Made by a program: the position numbers and the translations under genes. A DNA stretch of 64,000 bases from Alistipes sp. (GTDB taxonomy: Bacteria; Bacteroidota; Bacteroidia; Bacteroidales; Rikenellaceae). Below are positions 32,013 to 59,255 of the stretch, piece by piece. Location: positions 22,959 through 86,958 of the forward strand of contig JAHHQL010000004.1 of assembly GCA_020026415.1 (NCBI GenBank), in the 5' to 3' direction. Each line of letters starts with the position of its first letter. The stretch's first letter is position 1. Under the pieces are notes generated by a model. It ran no database searches, was not told where the DNA came from, and saw only the letters and a program-made list of their open reading frames with translations.

Positions 32013-34331
32013 ATGTTGCGTAAAACCCTTTCATTTCTCATCGCTTTGATGTTCACCCTTTCTGCTTCGGCGCAAAAACAGCCGTCGGGCATCGGTTTGG
32101 TGATGAGCGGAGGCGGTGCCAAAGGACTTTATCATATCGGCGTACTGGAGGCTTTGGAGGAGAGCGGAGTCCCGATCGACTATGTGGCGGGAACCTCCAT
32201 GGGATCAATAATCGCGGCGATGTATGCCGCGGGTTATTCGCCGGCGGAGATGCGTCGGATCGTGCTGTCGGGTGCCGTGCGCGAGTGGGCGTTCGGAATG
32301 ATCGACCCGAACCGCTACATGGCTTTCTATCGTCAGGTGGCACAGGCTCCCGCACTGGTGAACATCCGCCTCGACTTCAAGAAGGGAAGTTCCAAACCGC
32401 TGCTGATGCCCACAAACCTCATCTCCTCGACACAGGTCGATCTGGCGTTGATGGGTTTGTTTGCCCCCGCAACGGCTGCCGCAGGAGAGGATTTCGACAA
32501 ACTGATGATCCCGTTCCTGTGTGTGGCAAGCGACATGAAGGAGCGCAAACCCGTGGTTCTGCGGGACGGCGAACTCTCCGAAGCGGTGCGTTCGTCGATG
32601 TCCATCCCGTTGGTTTACAAGCCGATGAAGCGTGGCGACATGATTCTTTATGACGGCGGTGTGTTCGATAATTTCCCGTGGAAGGCTCTCCGGCGGGAAT
32701 TTGATCCCGAATTTATCGTGGGCAGCATCTGCACGAGCGGAAACAGCGTACCCGACGAGAATACCGACATTTTCGATCAGGCGTTTGCTCTGGCGATGCA
32801 GGAGACCGATTACGACATTCCCGAAGAGACGGGTGTCACGATCGTGCGCGACGTGAAGGTCAATATGTTGGACTTCGACCGTGCCGAAGAGATTATGGAT
32901 GCGGGTTATACGGATGCCATGAAGAAGATGCCGGAGATCCTTTCGCGGGTGTCGCGCCGTTTTACGGCGGCCGAGTTCAAGGCACGCCGCGAGGAGTTCC
33001 GCAAGAAATGTCCGCCGCTCTATTTTTGTGATTATCACCTCGAAGGCATGAATCGGGCCCAACGGGAATACATCCGCGATTTCGTGCATGTCGATCGTCA
33101 GATCAAGGGTCGTCAGCGCGTGATGTCGTTCGAGAAACTGCGCGGAAAACTCTTCGAGGTGTTGGCATCGGGCGATTTCACGATGGATTTTCCCCATGCG
33201 CGTTACGATGCCGAGACAGACGGTTATTCGTTTACCGCCAATTTCCGCACCAAACCCAATTTCAAACTATCGCTCGGCGGTTGCATCTCTTCGACAGCCT
33301 TCAATCAGGCCTACATCGGCATCAACTATCAGAAAATCGGACGTGTCGCTCAAGTGGTCGGAAGTGAATTTTTCTTGGGACCTCTGCATACGTGGGGTTC
33401 GGTGGGCGGACGAACGGACTTCTACATGTGGAAGCCTCTGTTTATCGACTATTCGTTCAATTTCGGCGTGCGCAACCTCCATCACGGCTATTTCGGCGGT
33501 TTGACGCACATCGACAACGCCAAGAAAGTGCGCGAAAACGACTACTTCGGGTCGTTCGGATTCGGCATGCCGATGAATCTGCGCGGTATATTTTCGCTGC
33601 GCGCCAATGTCGGTCAGCAAAACTTTCGTTATCAGGCTCTGAACGGTGTACCGGATGATTTCGACCATTCGCGTTTTTCGTATTTCGGCCTCAAACTTGA
33701 GGCGCGTCGCTGTACGCTTGACCGTTTTGTGTTCCCGCGTCACGGATCGGATCTGGATCTTTCGGCGGTCTTTGTGACGGGACACGAGAAACTCGATCCG
33801 ATGGATACCGATCGTTTTGTGTCGGAGGAGTGCCGTCAATGGGTCGGCGGGCGTTTCAAGTGGGAAAAATACATTGATTTTGCCCGAAAAGGGTGGTTCT
33901 CGGTCGGTTTGTACGTCGATGCCGTTGTGACGAATCATCCCGATTTCGCACGCGATCGTGCCACGCTGATGTCGCTTCCGGTCTTTGCACCGATTCCCCA
34001 CTCGAACATGATCTACATGCCGACGTTCCACGGCAAACGATTTTTGGCGGGCGGTATCATGCCGACCTTCAACTTTACGCAGAATTTGTTCCTCCGCACG
34101 AGTGTCTATACGATGTGGCGCAACCGCCGCGTCCACATTCCCGATATTCGGGAACTCGAAGGCGAGCGCGAGCGTCTGCATTACATTGCCGACATGTCGC
34201 TCGTTTATCACACGCCCGTGGGTCCTGTGTCGCTCAGTCTTACCAAATACGACTTCAAATCGTGGCGCAACATGTATCTGACCCTTACACTCGGATACGC
34301 CATCTTTGCCCCCAAGGGAACATTCTATTAA
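32013..34331 (+). CDS. patatin-like phospholipase fused to a C-terminal outer-membrane beta-barrel-like region (PlpD/type Vd-like)
   Basis: Signal peptide. Patatin motifs GGGAKG, GTSMG (GxSxG) and DGG. About 450 aa of beta-strand-like sequence ending in an aromatic residue (...APKGTFY). Confidence 0.85.
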   Translation: MLRKTLSFLIALMFTLSASAQKQPSGIGLVMSGGGAKGLYHIGVLEALEESGVPIDYVAGTSMGSIIAAMYAAGYSPAEMRRIVLSGAVREWAFGMIDPNRYMAFYRQVAQAPALVNIRLDFKKGSSKPLLMPTNLISSTQVDLALMGLFAPATAAAGEDFDKLMIPFLCVASDMKERKPVVLRDGELSEAVRSSMSIPLVYKPMKRGDMILYDGGVFDNFPWKALRREFDPEFIVGSICTSGNSVPDENTDIFDQAFALAMQETDYDIPEETGVTIVRDVKVNMLDFDRAEEIMDAGYTDAMKKMPEILSRVSRRFTAAEFKARREEFRKKCPPLYFCDYHLEGMNRAQREYIRDFVHVDRQIKGRQRVMSFEKLRGKLFEVLASGDFTMDFPHARYDAETDGYSFTANFRTKPNFKLSLGGCISSTAFNQAYIGINYQKIGRVAQVVGSEFFLGPLHTWGSVGGRTDFYMWKPLFIDYSFNFGVRNLHHGYFGGLTHIDNAKKVRENDYFGSFGFGMPMNLRGIFSLRANVGQQNFRYQALNGVPDDFDHSRFSYFGLKLEARRCTLDRFVFPRHGSDLDLSAVFVTGHEKLDPMDTDRFVSEECRQWVGGRFKWEKYIDFARKGWFSVGLYVDAVVTNHPDFARDRATLMSLPVFAPIPHSNMIYMPTFHGKRFLAGGIMPTFNFTQNLFLRTSVYTMWRNRRVHIPDIRELEGERERLHYIADMSLVYHTPVGPVSLSLTKYDFKSWRNMYLTLTLGYAIFAPKGTFY

Positions 34332-39626: not shown

Positions 39627-40550
39627 TTAGAGTTTGCCGTTCACGGCACGGATGAAAATGTCGTTCATCGAGGGGATGATCTCGCGGAACGAACGCAATT
39701 CGACCAGATCGTTCGTGCGGGCGATGACCGTTTTTAAGTCCTCGTTGCGTTCGACATGGAATTTGAGGGTGTGCAGTTCGCCGAAAGACTCCTCTTCGGA
39801 GGGGAGAATCTCGCCGAAACGGGTCAGATTTTCCGTAAGTCGCTCCTCGTCACCGCGGAACTGCACCTCGAAGATGTTCGCTCCGTGGCGGCGGCGGATC
39901 TCTTCGGTCTGACCTGAAAGGATGTTGTGCGATTTGTTGATCAGTGCGATGTGGTCGCAAAGTTCTTCGACGGATGCCATGTTGTGGGTCGAGAAGATGA
40001 TCGTTGCGCCCTTTTTGTGCAGACGGAGAATTTCGTCCTGAAGCACCTTGGCGTTGATGGGGTCGAAGCCGGAGAACGGCTCGTCGAAGATGAGCAGTTC
40101 GGGTTCGTGGAGCACCGTGGTGATGAACTGCACTTTCTGTGCCATACCTTTCGACAATTCATCGACCTTCTTGTTCCACCACTCCTCGATGCCGAAACGC
40201 TCGAACCACTCCTTCAGACGCATCAGTGCGTCGTGGCGCGAGATACCTTTCAGACGGGCGAAGAACAGTGCCTGTTCGCCGACTTTCATTTTCTTGTAGA
40301 GTCCGCGCTCTTCGGGCAGATAACCGATGCGGAAGATGTCTTCGGGACTCAGCGCATGGCCGTTGAACAAGACGCGACCCGTGTCGGGTGCCGTGATGCG
40401 GGTGAGGATGCGGATCAGTGTGGTTTTGCCCGCACCGTTGGGACCCAAAAGACCGAAGATCGATCCTTTGGGGATGGTGAGGGACACGTCGTCCAAAGCC
40501 TTGTGGTTGGTGTATTGCTTCGAAACGTGTTCGATCGAGAGTAAATCCAT
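39627..40550 (-). CDS. ABC transporter ATP-binding protein (NatA-like)
   Basis: Walker A GLLGPNGAGKTT, signature LSKGMAQK, Walker B LLIFDEP. Confidence 0.93.
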   Translation of the reverse strand: MDLLSIEHVSKQYTNHKALDDVSLTIPKGSIFGLLGPNGAGKTTLIRILTRITAPDTGRVLFNGHALSPEDIFRIGYLPEERGLYKKMKVGEQALFFARLKGISRHDALMRLKEWFERFGIEEWWNKKVDELSKGMAQKVQFITTVLHEPELLIFDEPFSGFDPINAKVLQDEILRLHKKGATIIFSTHNMASVEELCDHIALINKSHNILSGQTEEIRRRHGANIFEVQFRGDEERLTENLTRFGEILPSEEESFGELHTLKFHVERNEDLKTVIARTNDLVELRSFREIIPSMNDIFIRAVNGKL

Positions 40551-41775: not shown

Positions 41776-41932
41776 CAGGTAAAGGGCTCTGTTTTTCACC
41801 CGATTGTGGCGGTCGGGAATCCTGCTTCGGTCCGCAAACCGACAAAAATGGCGGATTCTTTCCCAAAAAAACACCCGGAAAGAGGAATCTTCGCCGAAAA
41901 ATCTTATCTTTACACATTAAATGTGCATCACC

Positions 41933-42778
41933 ATGGAGAATAAACCACTGACCATCGCTTTGATCTACGATTTTGACGGGACGCTGGCTCCCGGCAACAT
42001 GCAGGAGTATGATTTCATTCCGGCCGTCGGAAAGAGCAACAAGGAGTTCTGGACGGAATCCAACTCGCTGGCCGAAGATCAGGATGCCGACGGAATCTTG
42101 GCGTATATGTGGCGCATGTTGCAGGCGGCACGTTCGAAGGGATTGTCCCTAAGGCGCGAGGCGTTTCAGGAGTCGGGACGCGGTGTGGAACTCTTCGAAG
42201 GGGTACGCGAATGGTTTTCTCGTATCAACCGCTACGGCGAGCAGCGCGGTATCCGCATCTGGCACTACATCAATTCGTCCGGCCTGAAGGAGATCATCGA
42301 GGGTACGCCCATTGCGGGCGAGTTCCGCAAGATCTATGCCTGTTCGTACCTCTACGATGTGGACGGCATCGCCTACTGGCCTGCCGTGGCGGTCAATTAC
42401 ACGAACAAGACGCAGTTCGTCTTCAAGATCAACAAGGGCGTGGAGTCGGTGTACGACAGCCGCGAGGTCAATCGCTACATTCCCGAAAAGGAACGCCCCA
42501 TCCCGTTTGCGCACATGATCTATGTGGGTGACGGAACGACCGACATCCCCTGTATGCGTCTGGTGAAGAGTTCGGGCGGGCATTCGATTGCCGTGTATAA
42601 TCCCGCGAAAAGCGGGGCGCGCCGCGAGTTGTCGTCGCTGATCCACGACAACCGCGTGAATTACGTCTGCGCCGCCGATTACCGCGAAAATTCCGAGATG
42701 GATACTCTGGTGAAAACCATCATCGACAAGATCGCGCTGGACGACCGTCTGGAGCGGATGAAGGTCGCCGTAAAATAA
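41933..42778 (+). CDS. HAD-superfamily hydrolase
   Basis: Motif I YDFDGTL and motif III VGDGTTD. Start could be ATG 41933 or ATG 41921. Confidence 0.8.
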   Translation: MENKPLTIALIYDFDGTLAPGNMQEYDFIPAVGKSNKEFWTESNSLAEDQDADGILAYMWRMLQAARSKGLSLRREAFQESGRGVELFEGVREWFSRINRYGEQRGIRIWHYINSSGLKEIIEGTPIAGEFRKIYACSYLYDVDGIAYWPAVAVNYTNKTQFVFKINKGVESVYDSREVNRYIPEKERPIPFAHMIYVGDGTTDIPCMRLVKSSGGHSIAVYNPAKSGARRELSSLIHDNRVNYVCAADYRENSEMDTLVKTIIDKIALDDRLERMKVAVK

Positions 42779-50983: not shown

Positions 50984-51724
50984 TTACAGCAGGCGGCGGC
51001 GAAATTCGGCGCAGACGATGCCCGTGGCCATCGCCACGTTCAGCGATTCGGTCGTGCGGCAATCTTCGGGATAGTTCGGGATGAGGATCTTGCGGCTGAC
51101 CGAAAGGGCGGTGTCGGGCGAGATGCCGCGACCTTCGTTACCCATGACGATAATGCCCTCCCCGGAGAGTTCCGTGTGGTAGATATTTTCCCCTTCGAGG
51201 AAGGTGCCGTAGATGGGAATCTCCATCTTCGAGGCTTTTGCAAGGGTCTCTGCCAAAGGAAGATAGTGGATTTCGACACGCAGAATTGCACCCATCGTTG
51301 CCTGCACGACTTTCGGGTTGAAGCAGTCGGCGGTCGAGGGCGAAGCGAGGATGTGGTGGATGCCGAACCAGTCGGCAACACGCATGATCGTACCCAAGTT
51401 GCCCGGGTTCTGCACATCGTCCAGCGCGATCATCAGTTCCCCGCGGTGATCCTCCATACGAAACGCGCGGTGCGGGATTTCGACCAGTGCCAGCGAATTT
51501 GAGGGGGTTTTCAACAGCGACAGACGCTCCATGTCCTTGCGCGTGACGGTCTCCACCTCCCGACCCTCAAAAACGCCCTCCAAAGCGAAGATTTTACGGA
51601 TGCGGAGCTGCGAAGAGCGGATCTCGCCGATGAGTTTCTCGCCCTCGGCGACAAAAAGACCCTCCTCCGTGCGTGCGCGTTTGTCGTTGAGCGAGCGCAC
51701 CAACTGAATTTCTGCTTTTGTCAT
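50984..51724 (-). CDS. TrmH/SpoU-family RNA 2'-O-methyltransferase
   Basis: 246 aa with SpoU motifs (DDVQNPGNLGTIMR, IVMGNEGRGIS, SLNVAMA). Its ATG overlaps the rnz stop (ATGA). Confidence 0.88.
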   Translation of the reverse strand: MTKAEIQLVRSLNDKRARTEEGLFVAEGEKLIGEIRSSQLRIRKIFALEGVFEGREVETVTRKDMERLSLLKTPSNSLALVEIPHRAFRMEDHRGELMIALDDVQNPGNLGTIMRVADWFGIHHILASPSTADCFNPKVVQATMGAILRVEIHYLPLAETLAKASKMEIPIYGTFLEGENIYHTELSGEGIIVMGNEGRGISPDTALSVSRKILIPNYPEDCRTTESLNVAMATGIVCAEFRRRLL

Positions 51725-52644
51725 TTCTGCTTTTCGATTTCAAAGGTTTTTCCCTCAACGGCGGCGTAGGTTTCCGCAAATACGGTCTGTGCCTCCCGAA
51801 CGAGTACCTCCTCGTCCTTGTAACGCGACGAATAGTGACCGATGATGAGGCGTTTGGCTCCTGCTTTCAGAGCGGCTTTGGCGGCGTCGAGGGTGGTGGC
51901 GTGACCGCGGTCGCGGGCATTGCGCTGCTCGTCGGCGGCATAGGTTGCCTCGTGGTACATCAGATCGACCCCCGTGCAGAGCGTGGCGGCCTTGGCCGAG
52001 AAATTCGTATCCGAAAGATAGGCATACGAACGCGCCTTGTAGGGAATGTAGGTGATTGCTTCGTTGGGGATTATGCGTCCGTCGTCGAGCGTAAGATCCT
52101 CCCCGCGTTTGGCGGCGGTGATTTGGGCGATCGACAGTCCCAATTCCGAGATCTTCTCCTTATCGACATTCAGCGGCGGCTGTTTTTCTCGAAACAGGAA
52201 TCCCGCACACGGCACACGGTGGCGCAAAGGAATGCTCCACACCTCCAAGGTGCGGTTTTCGAAGAGCAATTCGTGACGCGTGGTGTGTGTTTCGTGCCAG
52301 ACGACTTCGTAGGGCAGATCCTTGTCGAAGAATTTCAGATGGCTCTCCAGAATCTCGCCGAACGGAGCGGGTGCATAGACATCGAGCGGGGTTTTGCGGC
52401 CGCCCAACCCCAAGGTGGAGATCAGGGGAAACAATCCGAAGACATGATCGCCGTGGAGGTGTGAGATGAATATGCCCCTGAGTTTGAGCGGATTGATCCC
52501 CGCACGCACCATCTGCTGCTGGGTGCCTTCGCCGGCATCCACCAGATAGTATTGTTCTTCGAGGTTCACGATTTGTGCCGAAGGATGGCGGTTGGCGGTC
52601 GGACGTGCCGACGCAGAACCGAGTATGGTGACGGAGAAACTCAA
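51721..52644 (-). CDS. rnz: ribonuclease Z
   Basis: 307 aa, metallo-beta-lactamase motif HLHGDH, typical RNase Z N-terminus. Confidence 0.93.
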   Translation of the reverse strand: MSFSVTILGSASARPTANRHPSAQIVNLEEQYYLVDAGEGTQQQMVRAGINPLKLRGIFISHLHGDHVFGLFPLISTLGLGGRKTPLDVYAPAPFGEILESHLKFFDKDLPYEVVWHETHTTRHELLFENRTLEVWSIPLRHRVPCAGFLFREKQPPLNVDKEKISELGLSIAQITAAKRGEDLTLDDGRIIPNEAITYIPYKARSYAYLSDTNFSAKAATLCTGVDLMYHEATYAADEQRNARDRGHATTLDAAKAALKAGAKRLIIGHYSSRYKDEEVLVREAQTVFAETYAAVEGKTFEIEKQK

Positions 52645-52665: not shown

Positions 52666-52711
52666 TTAAAAAAATCCCGCTTCCCGTGCCCTGCAAGGCA
52701 TTGGGAAGCGA
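52666..52711 (-). terminator. intrinsic terminator after trxB
   Basis: Reverse strand: CGCTTCCC...GGGAAGCG stem followed by T7. Confidence 0.8.
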
Positions 52712-52730: not shown

Positions 52731-53654
52731 TTAACGGTGCAGGAAACGCTCGCAATCCAGAGCGGCGATGCAGCCCGAACCTGCGGCGGTGATGGCCTGA
52801 CGGTAGTGGGGATCCTTCACGTCGCCGGCGGCGAATACGCCCTCGACGCTCGTTCTCGACGAACCGCCCTCTACAACGATGTAACCCTCCTTGTCGAGTT
52901 CCAGCTGACCCTCGAATACCTCCACGTTGGGGTGGTGTCCGATGGCGAGGAAGAAGCCCGAAATCTCGATCGTGCGCTCCGTGCCGTCGGTCTTGCGCAA
53001 CAGGGCACCCGTCACGCCGTGCAGGTCGTCGCCCAGCACCTCGACGGTGTTGTGCTCGAACAGCACTTCGATGTTCTCGGTGTTGAACACACGCTCCTGC
53101 ATGGCTTTCGAAGCACGCAGGAACGGCTTGCGGACGATCAGATAAACCTTGCGGCACAGCGATGCGAGGTAGGTGGCCTCCTCACAAGCCGTGTCACCGC
53201 CACCGACTACGGCGACATCCTTCTTGCGATAGAAGAAACCGTCGCACGTAGCGCAGGCACTTACGCCCTGACCGCGGAATTTGGCCTCCGAGGGAAGACC
53301 CAGATATTTTGCCGAAGCACCCGTAGCCACGATCAGCGATTCGGCTTCGATCTCGTGTTCGCCGTCCACGACAACGTGGAAGGGACGCTTCGAAAGGTCG
53401 ATTTTGGTGATGATGCCCTTACGCATGTCGGCACCGAAACGTGCGGCCTGCTTGCGGATGTCTTCCATCATCTCCGGGCCGCTGATGCCCTGAGGATAAC
53501 CCGGAAAGTTCTCCACTTCGGTGGTGGTCGTCAGCTGACCGCCCGGTTCGATACCCGAATAGAGTACGGGATTGAGGTTTGCGCGCGAGGTGTAGATGGC
53601 GGCAGTGTATCCTGCCGGGCCGCTACCCATGATCAATACTTTTACATGTTCCAT
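52731..53654 (-). CDS. trxB: thioredoxin-disulfide reductase
   Basis: FAD motif GSGPAGYTAA, redox-active CATC, NADPH motif VVGGGDTA. Confidence 0.96.
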   Translation of the reverse strand: MEHVKVLIMGSGPAGYTAAIYTSRANLNPVLYSGIEPGGQLTTTTEVENFPGYPQGISGPEMMEDIRKQAARFGADMRKGIITKIDLSKRPFHVVVDGEHEIEAESLIVATGASAKYLGLPSEAKFRGQGVSACATCDGFFYRKKDVAVVGGGDTACEEATYLASLCRKVYLIVRKPFLRASKAMQERVFNTENIEVLFEHNTVEVLGDDLHGVTGALLRKTDGTERTIEISGFFLAIGHHPNVEVFEGQLELDKEGYIVVEGGSSRTSVEGVFAAGDVKDPHYRQAITAAGSGCIAALDCERFLHR

Positions 53655-53686: not shown

Positions 53687-54655
53687 TTATTCGTTTAGGG
53701 TTTTCTGTCCTCGCGGGGCGAACTCCGTGAGAGGTTGTCCCGTGTAGTCAAATTCCGCCCACAGGTCACCGCGACGCACCTCGAAAATACTCTCTTCGGG
53801 GTGGTAGTCCACAATGTCGTACATCATCGGCAGGATGCAGCGGCCTTCGCGGTCGATGACACCCATGCCCGTCGTGCGTTCGACGACGGCGCGTCCCTCC
53901 GCAAAATCATCCGCCCAGAGGTATTGTGACGGGATGACGGGTTGGTTCCTGTCGTCCACATAGCCGTAACCCTCCTTGTCGCGGACGCAGGTCAGTCCTT
54001 CGAACGTATGGCCGACCCAGAGGTGTCCCTTCAGATCGGGTGCGGGGTTGTACGGTGCATCGAAATCCGACACAAAGTCGCCGCCCAACTCGTCCAAGCG
54101 TGCCCGCAGCAGGTCGAATCCCTTCCGATCGCCACTCGGATCGCCGCCGATCACGGCATCCTGATAGCGGATCGGGATGAAGCGGTGTCCGTCCCAACGG
54201 ATGTTCGAGGGTTTGAGGTTGCGGTGGACAAATCCCGCCCGTTGCAACTCCTCCTGAAGCGTGTCGAGAGCCTTTTGCAGTTCGGCTTTCAAGGCATGCG
54301 TTGCCGCCTCCTCGAAACTGCATCCGGGGCAGGGCTGGAGGATCAGGTCTTGGCGGTTGCCCTCCTCGTCCGTGAGTTCTCCGCGCAGGATGCGTACCGA
54401 TGTCAAGGAGGGGCATTTGAGGCGGTCGAGTGCCGAGAGCGTATGTTCCGCGTGGAACATTCCTTCGCGCGAAAGCGGCATGGCGAGCAGATACCGTTCG
54501 CCACGGTAATGCACCACGGCATCGACAAATTCCGTCGTGCGGTGCAGGGCGGGAAGCCCCGTGTCGGTCACTTCGACCGTGATCCCGTGCAGGCGGCGGA
54601 GCCACAGGTCGGGCGCGGTGAGTGCGCGGGTGAAGGAGTGAACGGATACGGCCAT
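53687..54655 (-). CDS. predicted pseudokinase with C-terminal WG-type repeats
   Basis: 322 aa. The kinase-like catalytic loop reads HRNLKPSN (Asp replaced by Asn) and I see no DFG. C-terminal WG-repeat-like units (GYGYVDDRNQPVIP, GMGVIDREGRCILP). Paralogous architecture to 57353-58507. Confidence 0.7.
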   Translation of the reverse strand: MAVSVHSFTRALTAPDLWLRRLHGITVEVTDTGLPALHRTTEFVDAVVHYRGERYLLAMPLSREGMFHAEHTLSALDRLKCPSLTSVRILRGELTDEEGNRQDLILQPCPGCSFEEAATHALKAELQKALDTLQEELQRAGFVHRNLKPSNIRWDGHRFIPIRYQDAVIGGDPSGDRKGFDLLRARLDELGGDFVSDFDAPYNPAPDLKGHLWVGHTFEGLTCVRDKEGYGYVDDRNQPVIPSQYLWADDFAEGRAVVERTTGMGVIDREGRCILPMMYDIVDYHPEESIFEVRRGDLWAEFDYTGQPLTEFAPRGQKTLNE

Positions 54656-54656
54656 C

Positions 54657-55517
54657 TTATTCGCGTTTTACACTGATTGAACCTATGTTGAGCATCGTCA
54701 CCAACTGGGCGGCGGATGCGTTGTAACTCATTCCGCGGAACGGCGGCATGGCACCGATTCCCTTGGCTTCGCGGATCGCTTCGTCGAACGACGCGGGCAT
54801 CGTACTCGAACAGGCGTAGAGGATCGAGGCGTAATGTTCGGGGTAGCGCGTTTCGTCCTCCGTGGGGAAGAACAGACGCTCGGAATCCTCGCGGCTGCCG
54901 AGGTGGATGTTGATCAGAAGCACGTTTCCGTCACGTGTGCCGAGGCGTTTGATCTGGTTGGAGACGGCCTCCAACTCCTCGTCGCGGGCATCGGTCGCCT
55001 CGCCGTCGGTGATGTTGAACACCACGGGCGGGAAACTGTCGGCATGAGCCTCCGACATACACCACGAGCGCAGGAAATCGCGTGCCGTGCGCAGTGCCTC
55101 GCACATGGGCGTTTTGCCCTGTGCCTCGGCATGAATCCACACGGGAGTGGGGATCTCGCGCAGGGCAATCTCCCCGTCGGGCAGATGTTGTTCGAAGACC
55201 TCGCGGCGGATTTCGGGTTTGAGATGCGAAAGTTCGCACACCGACATCGACTCGCGCTCGTCGGGCAGGAGCGAACGCACCTCGTCATCGCCCGAATAAC
55301 TCCAGACGGCGATGTCGTAGTAGTCGCGTACCCCGTCGTCACGGCGTGCCCGTTCGATCAACTCGAACAGCAGGTCGTTCGTAATCGAAGCCACGGCTTC
55401 GGCCTTGGTGGTTTCCTTGCCCCGGTAGCGGGTTTTCTCGGCCATCGAACCCGAACCGTCGATCAGAATCAGAAAGGCGGTGCGGTGTTGGCGGGTGATG
55501 CTTTGGGTGTGTGACAT
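54657..55517 (-). CDS. soluble von Willebrand factor A (vWA) domain protein, TerY-like
   Basis: 286 aa with MIDAS motifs LIDGSGSM and NITDGEATD. No TM segment or signal peptide seen. Confidence 0.8.
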   Translation of the reverse strand: MSHTQSITRQHRTAFLILIDGSGSMAEKTRYRGKETTKAEAVASITNDLLFELIERARRDDGVRDYYDIAVWSYSGDDEVRSLLPDERESMSVCELSHLKPEIRREVFEQHLPDGEIALREIPTPVWIHAEAQGKTPMCEALRTARDFLRSWCMSEAHADSFPPVVFNITDGEATDARDEELEAVSNQIKRLGTRDGNVLLINIHLGSREDSERLFFPTEDETRYPEHYASILYACSSTMPASFDEAIREAKGIGAMPPFRGMSYNASAAQLVTMLNIGSISVKRE

Positions 55518-55535
55518 GACTTTGGCGTAAAAGGT

Positions 55536-57302
55536 TTAACTCTTCAGACCGCGTACCGTACAGTAGTCGCGGCGTATTTCTTCTTCGTCGTCGGTGTCGA
55601 TACCGTAACCGACGGCCATGTCCATCGAACAATCGCGGCGGCAGTCCTGATCGGTCATGCGGCGCAGGGCGGCGTGTGCATTCTCTCCTGCCGTAACGGC
55701 TTCGGCGATCTCTTCGGCCGAAGGGATGTGTCCCAGAAGGCCTGCATAGACCCCCTCTGCCCACGAACGCGCATAGTCGGCGTAGTGGACATGAAACACG
55801 CGCAGGCGGTTGTCGATGTCGGCGAAGGTCTTCAAGTGACCCTCTTCGACGGCATCGGCGACAGCCTCGGCTTCGCGTTTGGTGATGTATTGACCGCCCA
55901 GATCGATCCACGATCCCGATCCGTCGTATCGTTGTTGCGGAATCCCCTCCCGGAGCATTGCTCCGAGCGAGGCCACAATGGCTTTGTTGTAGAGCATGAT
56001 GCCGCGTTGCAGTCCGGAGGGGCGGATCGTCACTTTGTTATAGACATACGTGGCGGCATCGGGATCTTCCTCCCGCAGGCATTGCAGGGTGTCCACGGCA
56101 CGGAGCATCCCTTCGGTGATGTAGGGGTTGTACTCCTCGAAGTTGATCACGTCGCGGAATACCGTGCGGTGGTCGCGGCGCGGCCATTTCTCCACATCGC
56201 GCACCGCTCCGTAACTGGCAAGGTTCGCACCCGGCATCAGCACCGATTTACCCTCCCGCTCGACGAGATACGAGTAGGGGAAGATGCGCGTGTCGTGGTG
56301 GAAGGAGTGATGCCCCATGATCATCGTGAACGCACCTTCACGGGCAGGCGACATCACATAGGCACTGCTGGCGAACTTGCAACCGCGCAGATGGATCGCC
56401 TGATGGACGGCACCGCTCTTGAACAGGTGGTTGCTCTGGTTCGATCCGCTCCCCGCATTGAAAAACGAGAAATAACCCGCAATTAGAAGGGATGATTTGT
56501 GGTGGGTGACGGTGTAGGGGCCTGCGAAAATCGAGGCGGCCTCGCCGTTCTCGCAATGGCTGTTGGCAAAGAACAGCGAATCGGAGGCGGTGAAGTTCTT
56601 GTCCATGACCGATCCCTCGCCCACAAAACAGCGTTCGAGGATCACACCGTTGTCGATGCGTGTCCCTTCGGCGAGGATGAAGTCGTAGGCCTTGACATCC
56701 ATGCCGACAAACGCCCCGTCGAGGATCGTTCCGTTCTGGAGGACGGTTGCGCCGTCGATCCGAACGCCCTTGCCGATGCGTACCTCGCGGACGAAGCGGA
56801 CACCGTTCAAAACCGAATCGTCACCGATTTCGCCCAGCGTATCACGGCGCGAGGCGGCATATTGGCGGGTCATCTCGTCGAGGCGGGCGACAAGTCGCGG
56901 GCGGTGGCGGTAGAAGGCACTCATGTAGGCGGTCTGTGCCGTCATCCGATCGTGGATGAGGGTCGTGCGTCCGCCGCATTCGTTTACCGCCGCCACGGGG
57001 GTGGCATTGCCGAACGCCGATTCCTCGCGGCACTCCAACGCCGTGACGTTGTTGAGCCTTACGTTGCGACCGAGACGGTAGTTTCTGACCTGCGCGTTGA
57101 GGATCCGAACCCCCGACGCGATCTCGACACGACCTCCCAGACAGCAGTTGTGCAGTTGGTCGGGCGTGAAATCCTCCGCCACAAGCACCTCCTCCCACCT
57201 TTCGGCGGAAGTGTGGTTTGCCTTCAGCAGTTCGATCTCCATGTCGGTCAGATGTCTCAAAGTTGTTTCTTTTTTGAAGATTGAATTTCCCGTTTTGAAC
57301 AC
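55536..57302 (-). CDS. DUF4954-like left-handed beta-helix (hexapeptide-repeat) protein
   Basis: Long runs of hexapeptide-like repeats (GRVEIASGVRILNAQVRNYRLGRNVRLNNV, VRIGKGVRIDGATVLQNGTILDGAFVG). Start is ambiguous: GTG 57302, TTG 57260 or ATG 57242. The track start at 57500 overlaps the upstream gene and a promoter box. Confidence 0.7.
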   Translation of the reverse strand: MFKTGNSIFKKETTLRHLTDMEIELLKANHTSAERWEEVLVAEDFTPDQLHNCCLGGRVEIASGVRILNAQVRNYRLGRNVRLNNVTALECREESAFGNATPVAAVNECGGRTTLIHDRMTAQTAYMSAFYRHRPRLVARLDEMTRQYAASRRDTLGEIGDDSVLNGVRFVREVRIGKGVRIDGATVLQNGTILDGAFVGMDVKAYDFILAEGTRIDNGVILERCFVGEGSVMDKNFTASDSLFFANSHCENGEAASIFAGPYTVTHHKSSLLIAGYFSFFNAGSGSNQSNHLFKSGAVHQAIHLRGCKFASSAYVMSPAREGAFTMIMGHHSFHHDTRIFPYSYLVEREGKSVLMPGANLASYGAVRDVEKWPRRDHRTVFRDVINFEEYNPYITEGMLRAVDTLQCLREEDPDAATYVYNKVTIRPSGLQRGIMLYNKAIVASLGAMLREGIPQQRYDGSGSWIDLGGQYITKREAEAVADAVEEGHLKTFADIDNRLRVFHVHYADYARSWAEGVYAGLLGHIPSAEEIAEAVTAGENAHAALRRMTDQDCRRDCSMDMAVGYGIDTDDEEEIRRDYCTVRGLKS

Positions 57303-57332
57303 GAAGTGTTCCTTGCGTGTGGGATTAACGGA

Positions 57333-57364
57333 CAAATATACAGAAATCCCCGTTAAATCGCAAA
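57333..57364 (-). promoter_or_regulatory. promoter for the DUF4954-vWA-pseudokinase genes (-33 TTTG / -7 TATATTTG, 20-nt spacer)
   Basis: Reverse-strand TATATTTG at 57333-57340 and TTTG at 57361-57364, straddling the kinase gene stop. Confidence 0.55.
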
Positions 57365-58507
57365 CTCTTTGCCCGTGGTGTCGATTTCTGCCCGCTGATT
57401 TCCCCTTTCGACGGTGGCGCGACCACGGCGGAAGGGTTTCACGGCGGTGTATTGCGGACAGCGCAGAAGCGTTGCGCCGTCCCGTGAGATGTAACTCCAC
57501 GTGCGGTTCAGACGCACGGCTGCCAAGCCTTCGCTAAAGTCAAATCCCGCACTGTACATCGGCGGGATGATCCATTCGCCCGTCTCGCCACGGAATCCCC
57601 ACAAATTGCCCCGCACATCGAGTTCTGAAGGGGTCGAATCAAGCGGTGGGTAGCCGTCGAGTTCGTGTCGGGCGTACTTTAGAAGTTCGGGAAGCGCGGG
57701 TAGGTGCATCAGGGGACTCAGGAGCAGTTCCGCGATGCGGTATTGGGCGGCAAAGCCGTGACGATCAAAGAGATCCATTGTCTGTCGGAGCCGCGGGTCG
57801 GTCGCAATACGGCGCGGATCGAACAGCAGCCCGTCCTCGTGGTTCAGGTTTTTGCCGAGTGCGGGATCAAGTTCTAAAGCATGGAGTGCCGTCGAGATCA
57901 GTGCCGCGGGGTAGTCGTCCAATGTCGCGTCGAAATCATCGGCGGTACGGGCGGGATGCTGGTAGGCGGCAGTCCCCAATTCGGGACTGCGCAAGCCCTT
58001 AAATTCGGGGCGGAAGACCGCATCGAAATCAATCAGACGGAGCGATCCGTCTTCGAGCGCAAGGATGTTTTCGGGTTTCAGATCGCCGTGCGCCCAGTCG
58101 TCCGTAACGAGCGTTTCGGCCAAAAGATCGAACGAGCGTGCCAGATTTTTCAGCGTTGCGTGATCCCCTGCCTGCACTGCCTGTTCGATGCGTCGGCGGA
58201 GCGAGGTGCCCTCGATCCAGTCGAGCAGTACCACATCGACCCATTCGCCGCGGGTGGCATCGCACAAGTAGAGTGCCTTGGGGCGGAACGCATCGCCGTA
58301 GATCTCCCGAAGTCGCGCCGCAGGCCTTAAAAAACAGCGCAATACCTTCTTCCGTCCGTTGTGGCGGATGAGGAATCCGACGGCGTTGTTGCCCGCAAAA
58401 CAGCGGGGGCGTCCGCTTGCATCGGTGCATACCTCCACCGTCCCTTCAAGCCGCAAAAGGCGGTCGGGATCGGTCATCGTCGTAAGGTATTGGCGGAGGG
58501 TGTACAT
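57353..58507 (-). CDS. atypical Ser/Thr-type protein kinase with C-terminal WG-type repeats
   Basis: 384 aa. Catalytic loop HGDLKPENIL, DFD (DFG-like), GTAAYQHP (APE-like). C-terminal units LWGFRGETGEWIIPPMY and SEGLAAVRLNRTWSYISRDG. Confidence 0.8.
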   Translation of the reverse strand: MYTLRQYLTTMTDPDRLLRLEGTVEVCTDASGRPRCFAGNNAVGFLIRHNGRKKVLRCFLRPAARLREIYGDAFRPKALYLCDATRGEWVDVVLLDWIEGTSLRRRIEQAVQAGDHATLKNLARSFDLLAETLVTDDWAHGDLKPENILALEDGSLRLIDFDAVFRPEFKGLRSPELGTAAYQHPARTADDFDATLDDYPAALISTALHALELDPALGKNLNHEDGLLFDPRRIATDPRLRQTMDLFDRHGFAAQYRIAELLLSPLMHLPALPELLKYARHELDGYPPLDSTPSELDVRGNLWGFRGETGEWIIPPMYSAGFDFSEGLAAVRLNRTWSYISRDGATLLRCPQYTAVKPFRRGRATVERGNQRAEIDTTGKEFAI

Positions 58508-58513
58508 CGCGGG

Positions 58514-58549
58514 TAAAAATTAAGAGCAACCGATCGCTCGATTGCTCTT
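58514..58549 (-). terminator. intrinsic terminator after slyD
   Basis: Reverse strand: AAGAGCAA...TTGCTCTT stem followed by AATTTTT. It ends only ~7 nt before the kinase ATG. Confidence 0.7.
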
Positions 58550-59169: not shown

Positions 59170-59177
59170 CAAAGATA
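59170..59177 (-). promoter_or_regulatory. -7 box TATCTTTG upstream of slyD
   Basis: Exact TAnnTTTG on the reverse strand, 48 nt from ATG 59121. Confidence 0.55.
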
Positions 59178-59255
59178 GGCACTTCGCCGTCATGCACCAA
59201 ATAATCCGGGGAAATAAATCCCCGCATGCCCTAATTTTTTATGGTAAGACACTTC

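What the first reader, a model, noticed from the sequence alone, without database searches (positions are those of the whole stretch)
53687..58507. Kinase / DUF4954 beta-helix / TerY-like vWA / pseudokinase cassette with no described function
Four same-strand (-) genes are packed with gaps of 50, 18 and 1 nt. trxB follows 32 nt later, and the first terminator comes only after trxB (52666-52711).

Gene 1 (57353-58507) has an intact eukaryotic-type kinase catalytic loop (HGDLKPEN), a DFD (DFG-like) triad and C-terminal WG-type repeats. Gene 4 (53687-54655) has the same architecture but reads HRNLKPSN and lacks a DFG, so it is a predicted pseudokinase.

Between them lie a soluble vWA protein with a complete MIDAS (DGSGS ... 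TDGEATD) and a ~590-aa left-handed beta-helix protein of the uncharacterised DUF4954 type. That beta-helix gene has its own full consensus promoter (57333-57364).

vWA plus a Ser/Thr kinase is the core of the comparative-genomics 'TerY-P triad' (vWA + kinase + PP2C phosphatase), which has been linked to stress and conflict systems. Here there is no phosphatase. A pseudokinase and a DUF4954 protein occupy that place, and a redox enzyme sits at the 3' end. I know of no characterised system with this composition.
Basis: partly seen in the sequence, partly recalled or inferred. Interest (0 to 1): 0.8.

Follow-up and report, generated by a model that had tools for sequence, protein, structure and literature searches.

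The report
Phosphatase-less TerY-type kinase/vWA/pseudokinase module
Three of the four genes (an active kinase, a metal-binding vWA protein and a dead kinase copy) form an Alistipes-specific, phosphatase-less offshoot of the known TerY-P signalling/anti-phage triad, whereas the DUF4954 gene and trxB are resident neighbours, not parts of it.

Summary
All five ORFs, the gaps (50/18/1/32 nt), the motifs, the promoter before DUF4954 and the terminator after trxB are present as described.

- The vWA protein (V) matches PADLOC's TerY model over its full length (3.6e-56).
- The kinase (K) matches the TerY-P kinase model (1e-28).
- Their closest non-Alistipes relatives lie in canonical vWA–PP2C–kinase triads on cyanobacterial plasmids.
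- Gene 4 (P) is a conserved pseudokinase. It has a kinase fold, and none of 98 orthologues has the catalytic Asp.
- I found no PP2C in the 64-kb window.

DUF4954 and trxB are not components.
- DUF4954 occurs alone in about 50 non-Rikenellaceae genomes, often after hflX or recX.
- Two Alistipes lineages keep FKBP–DUF4954–trxB but have lost K, V and P together.
- Three others keep FKBP–K–V–P–trxB with DUF4954 gone, and the same promoter then sits directly before V.

The module is confined to Alistipes and its relatives, is inherited vertically in a housekeeping region, and is under purifying selection.

Best reading: a domesticated TerY-P derivative in which a pseudokinase, translationally coupled to the vWA protein, takes the phosphatase's place. 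Its biological output is unknown. It is a new variant of a known kind, of moderate interest.

The parts
57353..58507 (-). K: active Hanks-type Ser/Thr kinase of the TerY-P kinase family, with a C-terminal WG beta-repeat domain
   Evidence: PADLOC STK_OB scores 1e-28 over aa 4-246, and WG_beta_rep scores 1.9e-12. K shares the motifs GN.AV.F, [RK]C[FY], AHGDL[KQ]..NI, LID[FY]D and G..[AG][FY]QH..R with the kinases of canonical cyanobacterial triads. The catalytic Asp is kept in 56/56 orthologues and the D.D motif in 54/54.
54657..55517 (-). V: TerY-like cytosolic vWA protein with an intact MIDAS
   Evidence: PADLOC TerY scores 3.6e-56 over model positions 1-271 of 277. V is 33-35% identical over its full length to the vWA of vWA-PP2C-kinase triads on Calothrix and Acaryochloris plasmids. 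D20, S22, S24, T136 and D171 are invariant, and the motifs are present in 90/90 orthologues.
53687..54655 (-). P: pseudokinase paralogue of K, with a kinase-like domain truncated after the catalytic-loop region (aa 1-190) and WG beta repeats (aa ~213-303). It starts 1 nt after V.
   Evidence: BLASTP of K against P gives 6e-5 for the N-terminal domains and 7e-6 for the WG region. The AF2 model has pLDDT 85.9, and Foldseek gives probability 1.0 to protein kinases. H-x-N-L-K/R-x-x-N is conserved, with Asp at the catalytic-base position in 0/98 orthologues and no DFG Asp. The V-P gap ranges from -4 to +4 nt in five loci.
57333..57364 (-). Bacteroidetes-type promoter (TTTG-N20-TATATTTG) inside the 3' end of K. 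It is predicted to drive DUF4954-V-P-trxB.
   Evidence: Exact consensus, with 6 sites in the window against 0.17 expected. There is no other -7 box before V, P or trxB. The same box sits directly before V in the DUF4954-less loci L144, L162 and L163.
55536..57302 (-). DUF4954/DUF6819 left-handed beta-helix protein. It is a resident neighbour and not a component of the module.
   Evidence: Pfam DUF4954 scores 2.9e-133. It occurs alone in ~50 non-Rikenellaceae loci, after hflX in 14 and after recX in 9. It is retained where K, V and P are lost, and absent where K-V-P are kept. The AF2 model gives only weak matches to LbH acyltransferases.
52731..53654 (-). trxB (thioredoxin-disulfide reductase). 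It is a backbone gene that is probably co-transcribed with the module, not a component.
   Evidence: TIGR01292 scores 382 bits against a cut-off of 343. The DUF4954-trxB-rnz order is kept with or without V-P. trxB has the highest conservation of the block, with a median identity of 82%.
52666..52711 (-). Intrinsic terminator after trxB
   Evidence: A hairpin of -28.1 kcal/mol (z = -4.9) followed by U7.
58522..58549 (-). Terminator-like hairpin between the FKBP gene and K
   Evidence: 12-bp stem, -17.5 kcal/mol (z = -4.7), followed by AAUUUUUA.

Best explanation
The real unit is three genes: K, V and P.
- K is an active Ser/Thr kinase of the TerY-P kinase family.
- V is a TerY-like vWA protein with a complete MIDAS.
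- P is a kinase-dead, truncated paralogue of K.
- K and P both end in WG beta-repeats, where canonical TerY-P kinases carry an OB fold or a zinc ribbon.
- The PP2C phosphatase of the canonical triad is missing.

The unit is a vertically inherited, Alistipes-lineage derivative of the TerY-P triad. It has settled into a housekeeping transcription unit (DUF4954-trxB, followed by rnz). DUF4954 and trxB are bystanders that share a promoter and a terminator with V and P.

Shown here:
- family membership of K and V;
- kinase fold and dead active site of P;
- conserved catalytic and MIDAS residues;
- purifying selection on all three genes;
- joint loss of K, V and P, and independent loss of DUF4954.

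Inferred mechanism:
- V and P are translationally coupled and form a complex.
- V's MIDAS metal binds an acidic or phosphorylated epitope.
- K supplies the phosphorylation.
- P acts as scaffold, allosteric partner or phospho-acceptor, much as an HRN-type pseudokinase such as ErbB3 works with its active partner. It thereby takes over the regulatory role that PP2C has in the canonical triad.
- The WG repeats are the input or partner-binding domains.

The output is not determined. It could be anti-phage, as for TerY-P, or an endogenous stress signal.
For: - PADLOC matches: TerY 3.6e-56 over the full length, and STK_OB 1e-28.
- The nearest non-Alistipes V homologues sit in vWA-PP2C-kinase triads, and K hits the kinase of the same triads.
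- K shares family-specific kinase motifs with those kinases. The MIDAS is invariant, including in the cyanobacterial TerY proteins.
- K and P are paralogues. P has a kinase fold and lacks the catalytic Asp in 0/98 orthologues. This is already true in the basal lineages.
- No PP2C was found: in the annotated +/-10 kb, by phmmer across the window and loci, or by a PADLOC scan of the other 43 ORFs.
- K, V and P are lost together in L016 and L017. These are nested in the K/V/P-bearing clade with bootstrap 100 and 96.
- DUF4954 is absent, with K-V-P contiguous, in L144, L162 and L163. These fall at three separate tree positions and keep the promoter.
- DUF4954 stands alone in all sampled loci outside Rikenellaceae.
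- V-P gaps are -4 to +4 nt.
- Within-species dN/dS: V 0, P 0.06-0.10, K 0.27-0.35.
Against: - No interaction, phosphorylation or phenotype was tested.
- K scores below Pfam's Pkinase gathering threshold. It has Arg rather than Lys at the beta-3 position, although the canonical triad kinases do too.
- In the window, K is separated from V-P by DUF4954 and has no consensus promoter of its own.
- Basal lineages (L020, L033) have V-P but no K within 10 kb, and L027 keeps V alone. K may therefore not be obligatory.
- V always lies just after DUF4954, or after its promoter, in every genome seen. A regulatory tie to that transcription unit is not excluded.
- The trees are NJ on 3-4 proteins.
- The PP2C search covers only the window and the loci, not whole genomes.
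Confidence: 0.7

Rival explanations
1. All four genes, with or without trxB, form one functional system. K, V and P would regulate or act through the DUF4954 beta-helix protein, or the redox enzyme.
For: - In the window and in 47 of 50 fully covered metagenome loci the order is K-DUF4954-V-P-trxB.
- V follows DUF4954 across the whole depth of V divergence in Rikenellaceae, from 35% to 100% identity.
- One consensus promoter and one terminator bracket DUF4954-V-P-trxB.
Against: - DUF4954 occurs without V, K or P in every sampled locus outside Rikenellaceae and in several Rikenellaceae lineages.
- DUF4954-trxB persists after joint loss of K, V and P.
- K-V-P-trxB persists after loss of DUF4954 at three independent tree positions.
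- DUF4954 has no hit in PADLOC.
Confidence: 0.1
2. K, V and P are a working anti-phage defence system. This would be a TerY-P variant in which kinase activity, triggered by infection through the WG repeats, is the effector.
For: - K and V are specific homologues of the TerY-P parts held in PADLOC. TerY-P is reported to defend against T7-like phages (PMC7699616; PMC11090510).
- K and P evolve faster than their neighbours. Median identity is 50% and 44%, against 75-82% for rnz, the FKBP gene and trxB.
- K has a variable insertion, with pentapeptide repeats in some Alistipes.
- The module is sporadically lost.
Against: - The module sits at a fixed chromosomal site in a housekeeping region: MetRS, GidA, PGK, Mur ligases, FtsW, ThrRS and IF3.
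- There are no neighbouring defence genes that form a system.
- There is no sign of mobility.
- V has no relatives in phage or viral collections.
- The phosphatase of the tested triad is missing.
- The module is restricted to one genus-level lineage and inherited vertically.
Confidence: 0.3
3. The genes are decaying remnants of a former TerY-P triad, so the adjacency has no present function.
For: - The PP2C is lost.
- P has a dead active site and a truncated C-lobe.
- L027 keeps only a divergent V.
- The module has been lost in some lineages.
Against: - Reading frames are intact in about 100 loci.
- The MIDAS is present in 90/90 V orthologues, K's catalytic Asp in 56/56, and P's H-x-N-L-K/R-x-x-N loop is conserved in all.
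- Within-species dN/dS is 0 to 0.35.
- The tight V-P coupling is conserved.
Confidence: 0.05

Closest known systems
TerY-P triad (TerY-like vWA + PP2C phosphatase + Ser/Thr kinase), described by Anantharaman et al. 2012 and shown as a stand-alone anti-phage system by Gao et al. 2020, as summarised in PMC11090510 and PMC7699616
   Same: V is a full-length TerY homologue with the same MIDAS. K's kinase domain belongs to the same kinase family and shares its idiosyncratic motifs. All the proteins are cytosolic.
   Different: - There is no PP2C.
- The extra component is a pseudokinase paralogue directly downstream of the vWA gene.
- WG beta-repeats replace the OB fold or zinc ribbon at the kinase C-terminus.
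- The gene order is K...V-P rather than V-PP2C-K.
- The module is not on a plasmid or island. It is fixed in a housekeeping operon of one genus.
TerY-P modules embedded in Type II/III-A CoCoNuT (McrBC-related) systems (PMC11090510)
   Same: A TerY-type vWA plus kinase used as an accessory signalling module next to other genes.
   Different: There are no CnuB/C/H/E, McrBC or HEPN genes here. The neighbours are housekeeping genes.
Kinase/pseudokinase pairs such as ErbB3 (HRN catalytic loop) with ErbB2/EGFR. This is a works-like analogy from general knowledge only.
   Same: A paralogue with Asp-to-Asn in the catalytic loop is retained under selection alongside an active kinase.
   Different: There is no evolutionary relationship beyond the kinase fold. 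P is also truncated after the catalytic-loop region, and pairing of K with P is untested.
DUF4954 (PF16314) / DUF6819 (PF20683) family
   Same: The window's 588-aa protein is a clear member (2.9e-133).
   Different: Nothing is known about its function. No paper characterises it, and there is no solved homologue. It is not specifically linked to vWA or kinase genes.

Membership tests
TerY-P triad | TerY-like vWA protein with MIDAS | tested here: met
   PADLOC TerY scores 3.6e-56 over the full length. DxSxS, T and D are invariant and shared with the TerY of canonical triads.
TerY-P triad | Ser/Thr kinase of the triad-associated family | tested here: met
   PADLOC STK_OB scores 1e-28 over the kinase domain. 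tblastn hits the kinases of the same plasmid triads. The motifs are shared.
TerY-P triad | PP2C phosphatase encoded with the vWA and kinase genes | tested here: not met
   There is no PP2C among the annotated genes within +/-10 kb. phmmer with two triad PP2Cs found nothing in the window or in 85 loci. A PADLOC scan of the other 43 window ORFs found no TerY-P part. Whole genomes were not searched.
TerY-P triad | Kinase C-terminus is an OB fold (Gao-type) or a zinc ribbon (CoCoNuT/Ter-type) | tested here: not met
   The STK_OB model matches only positions 6-262 of 562. The C-terminus is WG_beta_rep.
TerY-P triad | Components contiguous in one operon | tested here: inconclusive
   In the window, K is separated from V-P by DUF4954 and its promoter. 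In L144, L162 and L163, K-V-P are contiguous.
TerY-P triad | Confers phage resistance | not testable with these tools
   This needs an experiment.
Hanks-type (eukaryotic-like) protein kinase: K | Catalytic loop HxDxKxxN, Mg-binding Asp (DFG), beta-3 Lys and Gly-rich loop | tested here: inconclusive
   HGDLKPEN and DFD are present and conserved. The beta-3 position is Arg or Lys within [RK]C[FY], and the Gly-rich loop is degenerate (GN.AV.F), as in the canonical triad kinases. Pfam Pkinase scores 26.8 bits, below the 31.7 cut-off. Activity is untested.
Pseudokinase: P | Kinase fold with catalytic residues missing | tested here: met
   Foldseek gives probability 1.0 to protein kinases over ~180 columns. 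The catalytic base is Asn or Gly in 98/98 orthologues, there is no DFG Asp and no beta-3 Lys, with P60 invariant.
DUF4954 (PF16314) | Match to the family profile above its cut-off | tested here: met
   445 bits against a cut-off of 26.2, plus DUF6819 at 66.6 bits.
Thioredoxin-disulfide reductase TrxB (TIGR01292) | Equivalog model above its cut-off | tested here: met
   382 bits against a cut-off of 343.

The most novel reading that the evidence does not exclude
A major human-gut genus carries in its core genome a constitutively co-transcribed, phosphatase-less TerY-type switch. A pseudokinase bound to the vWA protein would replace PP2C as the regulator of the active kinase, and WG-repeat domains would act as sensors. 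This would be a previously undescribed architecture for vWA/kinase signalling, serving immunity or stress sensing. A bolder sub-variant holds that it controls the DUF4954/trxB transcription unit it lives in.
Probability: 0.25. Interest if true: 0.6.

Novelty: new variant of a known kind. Interest (0 to 1): 0.45.

Why it matters
The mechanism of TerY-P is unknown. A natural variant that drops the phosphatase and adds a pseudokinase translationally coupled to the vWA protein points to which contacts matter: vWA with a kinase-like domain. It also offers a minimal three-protein set for biochemistry.

The result shows a defence-type module fixed in a housekeeping operon of an abundant gut genus. 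This bears on how such modules are domesticated.

It also removes a false lead. DUF4954 and trxB should not be annotated as parts of a conflict system on the basis of this adjacency.

Tried and rejected
- **HMMs from stop-to-stop ORFs.** The vWA HMM was contaminated by off-frame translations of DUF4954 and produced spurious 'vWA' hits inside DUF4954 genes. I discarded those hits. The K and P HMMs were usable and found no extra kinases upstream of DUF4954 in L020, L027 or L033.
- **ORFs upstream of DUF4954 in L020, L027 and L033.** These encode RecG, a coiled-coil protein, and RsgA plus SpoU. None is a kinase.
- **Biopython bootstrap.** It timed out, so I replaced it with a numpy NJ bootstrap.
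- **Phage records and viral contigs.** V has no relatives in either.
- **PDB sequence searches.** Nothing for V or for the WG domain. DUF4954 gave only chance-level hexapeptide hits.
- **Foldseek of the DUF4954 model.** Only weak matches to LbH acyltransferases, best E = 4e-3, so no function could be assigned.
- **trxB or rnz as a PADLOC candidate.** Rejected. The strong PDC-S34 hit in the window belongs to an unrelated HAD hydrolase 12 kb away.
- **Literature.** There is no paper on DUF4954 function, and none on WG-repeat kinases in Bacteroidetes.
Full report
**1. Observation**

- K: 57353-58507, 384 aa.
- DUF4954 protein: 55536-57302, 588 aa, GTG start.
- V: 54657-55517, 286 aa.
- P: 53687-54655, 322 aa.
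- trxB: 52731-53654.

The gaps between them are 50, 18, 1 and 32 nt.

Profile searches gave the following:
- K: WG_beta_rep 1.9e-12, and partial Pkinase 4e-6, which is below the Pfam cut-off.
- DUF4954 2.9e-133, plus DUF6819 2.9e-18.
- V: a weak VWA_2 hit (1.7e-4).
- P: WG_beta_rep only (2.8e-10).
- trxB: TIGR01292, above its cut-off.

PADLOC was more specific. V matches the TerY model end to end (3.6e-56). K matches the kinase half of the STK_OB model (1e-28). These are the two models of the TerY-P system. DUF4954 and P hit nothing significant there.

**2. Transcription signals**

- The sequence at 57333-57364 is an exact Bacteroidetes-type promoter, TTTG-N20-TATATTTG.
- The window holds six such sites against 0.17 expected by chance. 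One lies before DUF4954 and one before the upstream FKBP gene.
- There is no -7 box before V, P or trxB, and only a degenerate one before K.
- A strong terminator follows trxB (-28 kcal/mol, z = -4.9, U7). A second hairpin follows the FKBP gene.
- The predicted main transcript is therefore DUF4954-V-P-trxB. K may be read through into it or be weakly expressed on its own.
- In related genomes the exact -7 box recurs before DUF4954 in about half of the Rikenellaceae loci. It never occurs before V, P or K.

**3. What K, V and P are**

V's closest relatives outside Alistipes are the first gene of vWA-PP2C-kinase triads on Calothrix and Acaryochloris plasmids. They are 33-35% identical over the full length. 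K's kinase domain hits the third gene of the same triads.

K shares family-specific motifs with those kinases:
- GN.AV.F
- [RK]C[FY]
- AHGDL[KQ]..NI
- LID[FY]D
- G..[AG][FY]QH..R

V shares the complete MIDAS (D20, S22, S24, T136, D171) with them.

P is a distant paralogue of K in both the N-terminal domain and the WG repeats. Its AF2 model (pLDDT 85.9) has a kinase-like domain at aa 1-190. Foldseek assigns that domain to protein kinases with probability 1.0. WG beta strands follow.

Motif census across orthologues:
- P never has Asp at the catalytic-base position: HNNLR 47, HNNLK 40, HRNLK 5, others 6. That is 0 of 98.
- P has no DFG Asp and no beta-3 Lys. This is already true in the basal lineages.
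- K keeps the catalytic Asp in 56/56 and the D.D motif in 54/54.
- V keeps the MIDAS in 90/90.

Selection and rates:
- Within-species dN/dS is 0 for V, 0.06-0.10 for P and 0.27-0.35 for K. None of the three is a pseudogene.
- Median identity to the window proteins is P 44%, K 50%, V 59%, DUF4954 62%, rnz 75%, FKBP 76% and trxB 82%. The module evolves faster than its neighbours.

No PP2C was found:
- among the annotated genes within +/-10 kb;
- by phmmer with the two triad PP2Cs across the window and the loci;
- by a PADLOC scan of the other 43 window ORFs.

The rest of the window is housekeeping: MetRS, GidA, PGK, NadA, Mur ligases, FtsW, PheRS, ThrRS and IF3.

**4. Is DUF4954 (or trxB) part of it?**

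*DUF4954-anchored survey.* I took 80 species-representative genomes from a scan in which 592 matching stretches encoded DUF4954 relatives.
- The full order FKBP-K-DUF4954-V-P-trxB-rnz occurs only in core Alistipes.
- About 50 loci from other Bacteroidales and from Planctomycetota have DUF4954 alone. It is typically right after hflX (14 loci) or recX (9 loci).
- Tidjanibacter also has DUF4954 alone.
- One Alistipes/Rikenellaceae clade (L022-L026) has DUF4954-trxB-rnz only.
- Basal L020 and L033 have DUF4954-V-P-trxB without K.
- L027 has V only.

*Joint loss of the module.* L016 and L017 have FKBP-DUF4954-trxB-rnz with K, V and P all missing. They are sister to L011, which has the full set, with 100% bootstrap. 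They are nested in the module-bearing clade at 96%. This is a joint secondary loss of the three genes from both sides of DUF4954.

*P-anchored survey of metagenomes*.
- 47 loci have K-DUF4954-V-P-trxB.
- 30 shorter loci are consistent with that order.
- Three loci (L144, L162, L163) have FKBP-K-V-P-trxB-rnz with no DUF4954.
- In those three, the TATATTTG box now sits directly before V.
- The three fall at three separate positions among DUF4954-bearing relatives. One of them is next to the window's own lineage.

*Conclusion.* Both reciprocal states exist. K, V and P behave as one unit, and DUF4954 behaves as an independent resident gene. trxB-rnz is present in all states and is simply the downstream backbone.

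**5. DUF4954 itself**

- The AF2 model is confident (pLDDT 84.8, pTM 0.86).
- It shows a beta-helix followed by a helical domain.
- It has only weak similarity to LbH acyltransferases, best E = 4e-3.
- There is no solved homologue and no literature on its function.
- Its function stays unknown.

**6. Mechanism (inferred)**

The V-P gene gap is -4 to +4 nt in five loci. This argues for translational coupling and a stoichiometric V-P complex.

By analogy with the proposal for TerY-P (PMC11090510), V's MIDAS would engage an acidic or phosphorylated epitope. K would provide the phosphorylation. P would serve as scaffold, allosteric partner or substrate in place of the phosphatase. The WG repeats would be the input or docking domains. 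They are shared by K and P and absent from canonical triad kinases.

Some Alistipes K proteins carry an insertion, with pentapeptide repeats, between the kinase domain and the WG repeats. This is consistent with a variable sensing region.

Whether the output is anti-phage is open.
- For: homology to a validated defence system (PMC7699616), and fast evolution.
- Against: a fixed core-genome location, vertical inheritance, no mobility, no defence-gene neighbours, and no viral relatives.

**7. Verdict**

The entity is a new variant of a known kind. It is a phosphatase-less kinase/vWA/pseudokinase derivative of TerY-P, confined to Alistipes and its relatives.

Caveats:
- The trees are NJ on a few proteins.
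- Only loci, not whole genomes, were searched.
- Nothing about interaction or activity was tested.

Noticed in passing
L144 5095-5145; L162 5085-5143; L163 2673-2713: Three metagenome Alistipes loci lack DUF4954 between K and V but keep its TATATTTG promoter box. They sit at three separate tree positions, so the gene was removed from this site repeatedly and cleanly. The deletion mechanism is unknown, and so is whether DUF4954 lives elsewhere in those genomes.
   Followed up: partly
window 41921-42775 (+): A 285-aa HAD-family hydrolase matches the PADLOC candidate single-gene defence family PDC-S34 very strongly (8e-131). It lies next to Ham1 (ITPase) and GTP cyclohydrolase I genes.
   Followed up: partly
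P0337, P0341, P0347, P0356; L088 3506-5452: Some Alistipes K orthologues (595-664 aa) carry extra sequence with pentapeptide repeats, and many others are 445-470 aa with an insertion between the kinase domain and the WG repeats. Their gene context is the same (FKBP-K-DUF4954).
   Followed up: partly
window 55536-57302 (-), aa 268-299 of the protein: The most conserved DUF4954 motif (HHKS..., NAGSGSNQSNH) is the only internal region that AF2 models with pLDDT below 50. It may be an active-site or oligomer-interface loop. The family also occurs in Planctomycetota. In other Bacteroidales it often follows hflX or recX.
   Followed up: partly
L027 11724-12542: One Alistipes lineage keeps only V. 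It is 35% identical, has an intact MIDAS and carries a ~14-aa deletion. Neither P nor K is nearby.
   Followed up: partly
window 59170-59201 (-) and 58522-58549 (-): The SlyD-like FKBP gene upstream of K has its own exact consensus promoter and a terminator hairpin that ends 15 nt before K's ATG. This leaves K without a recognisable promoter.
   Followed up: partly
window 51721-52644 (-): The RNase Z gene after the trxB terminator carries a Pfam 'Anti-Pycsar_Apyc1' hit in the precomputed annotation. It gave no PADLOC hit. This is probably a cross-hit within the metallo-beta-lactamase fold.
   Followed up: partly
window 39630-40550 (-) and 32013-34328 (+): An ABC-type ATPase hits the PADLOC models mad3, AriA and mad8 (best 3.8e-28). 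A patatin-domain protein weakly hits phospholipase effector models (4e-10). Both look like generic domain matches in housekeeping genes.
   Followed up: no
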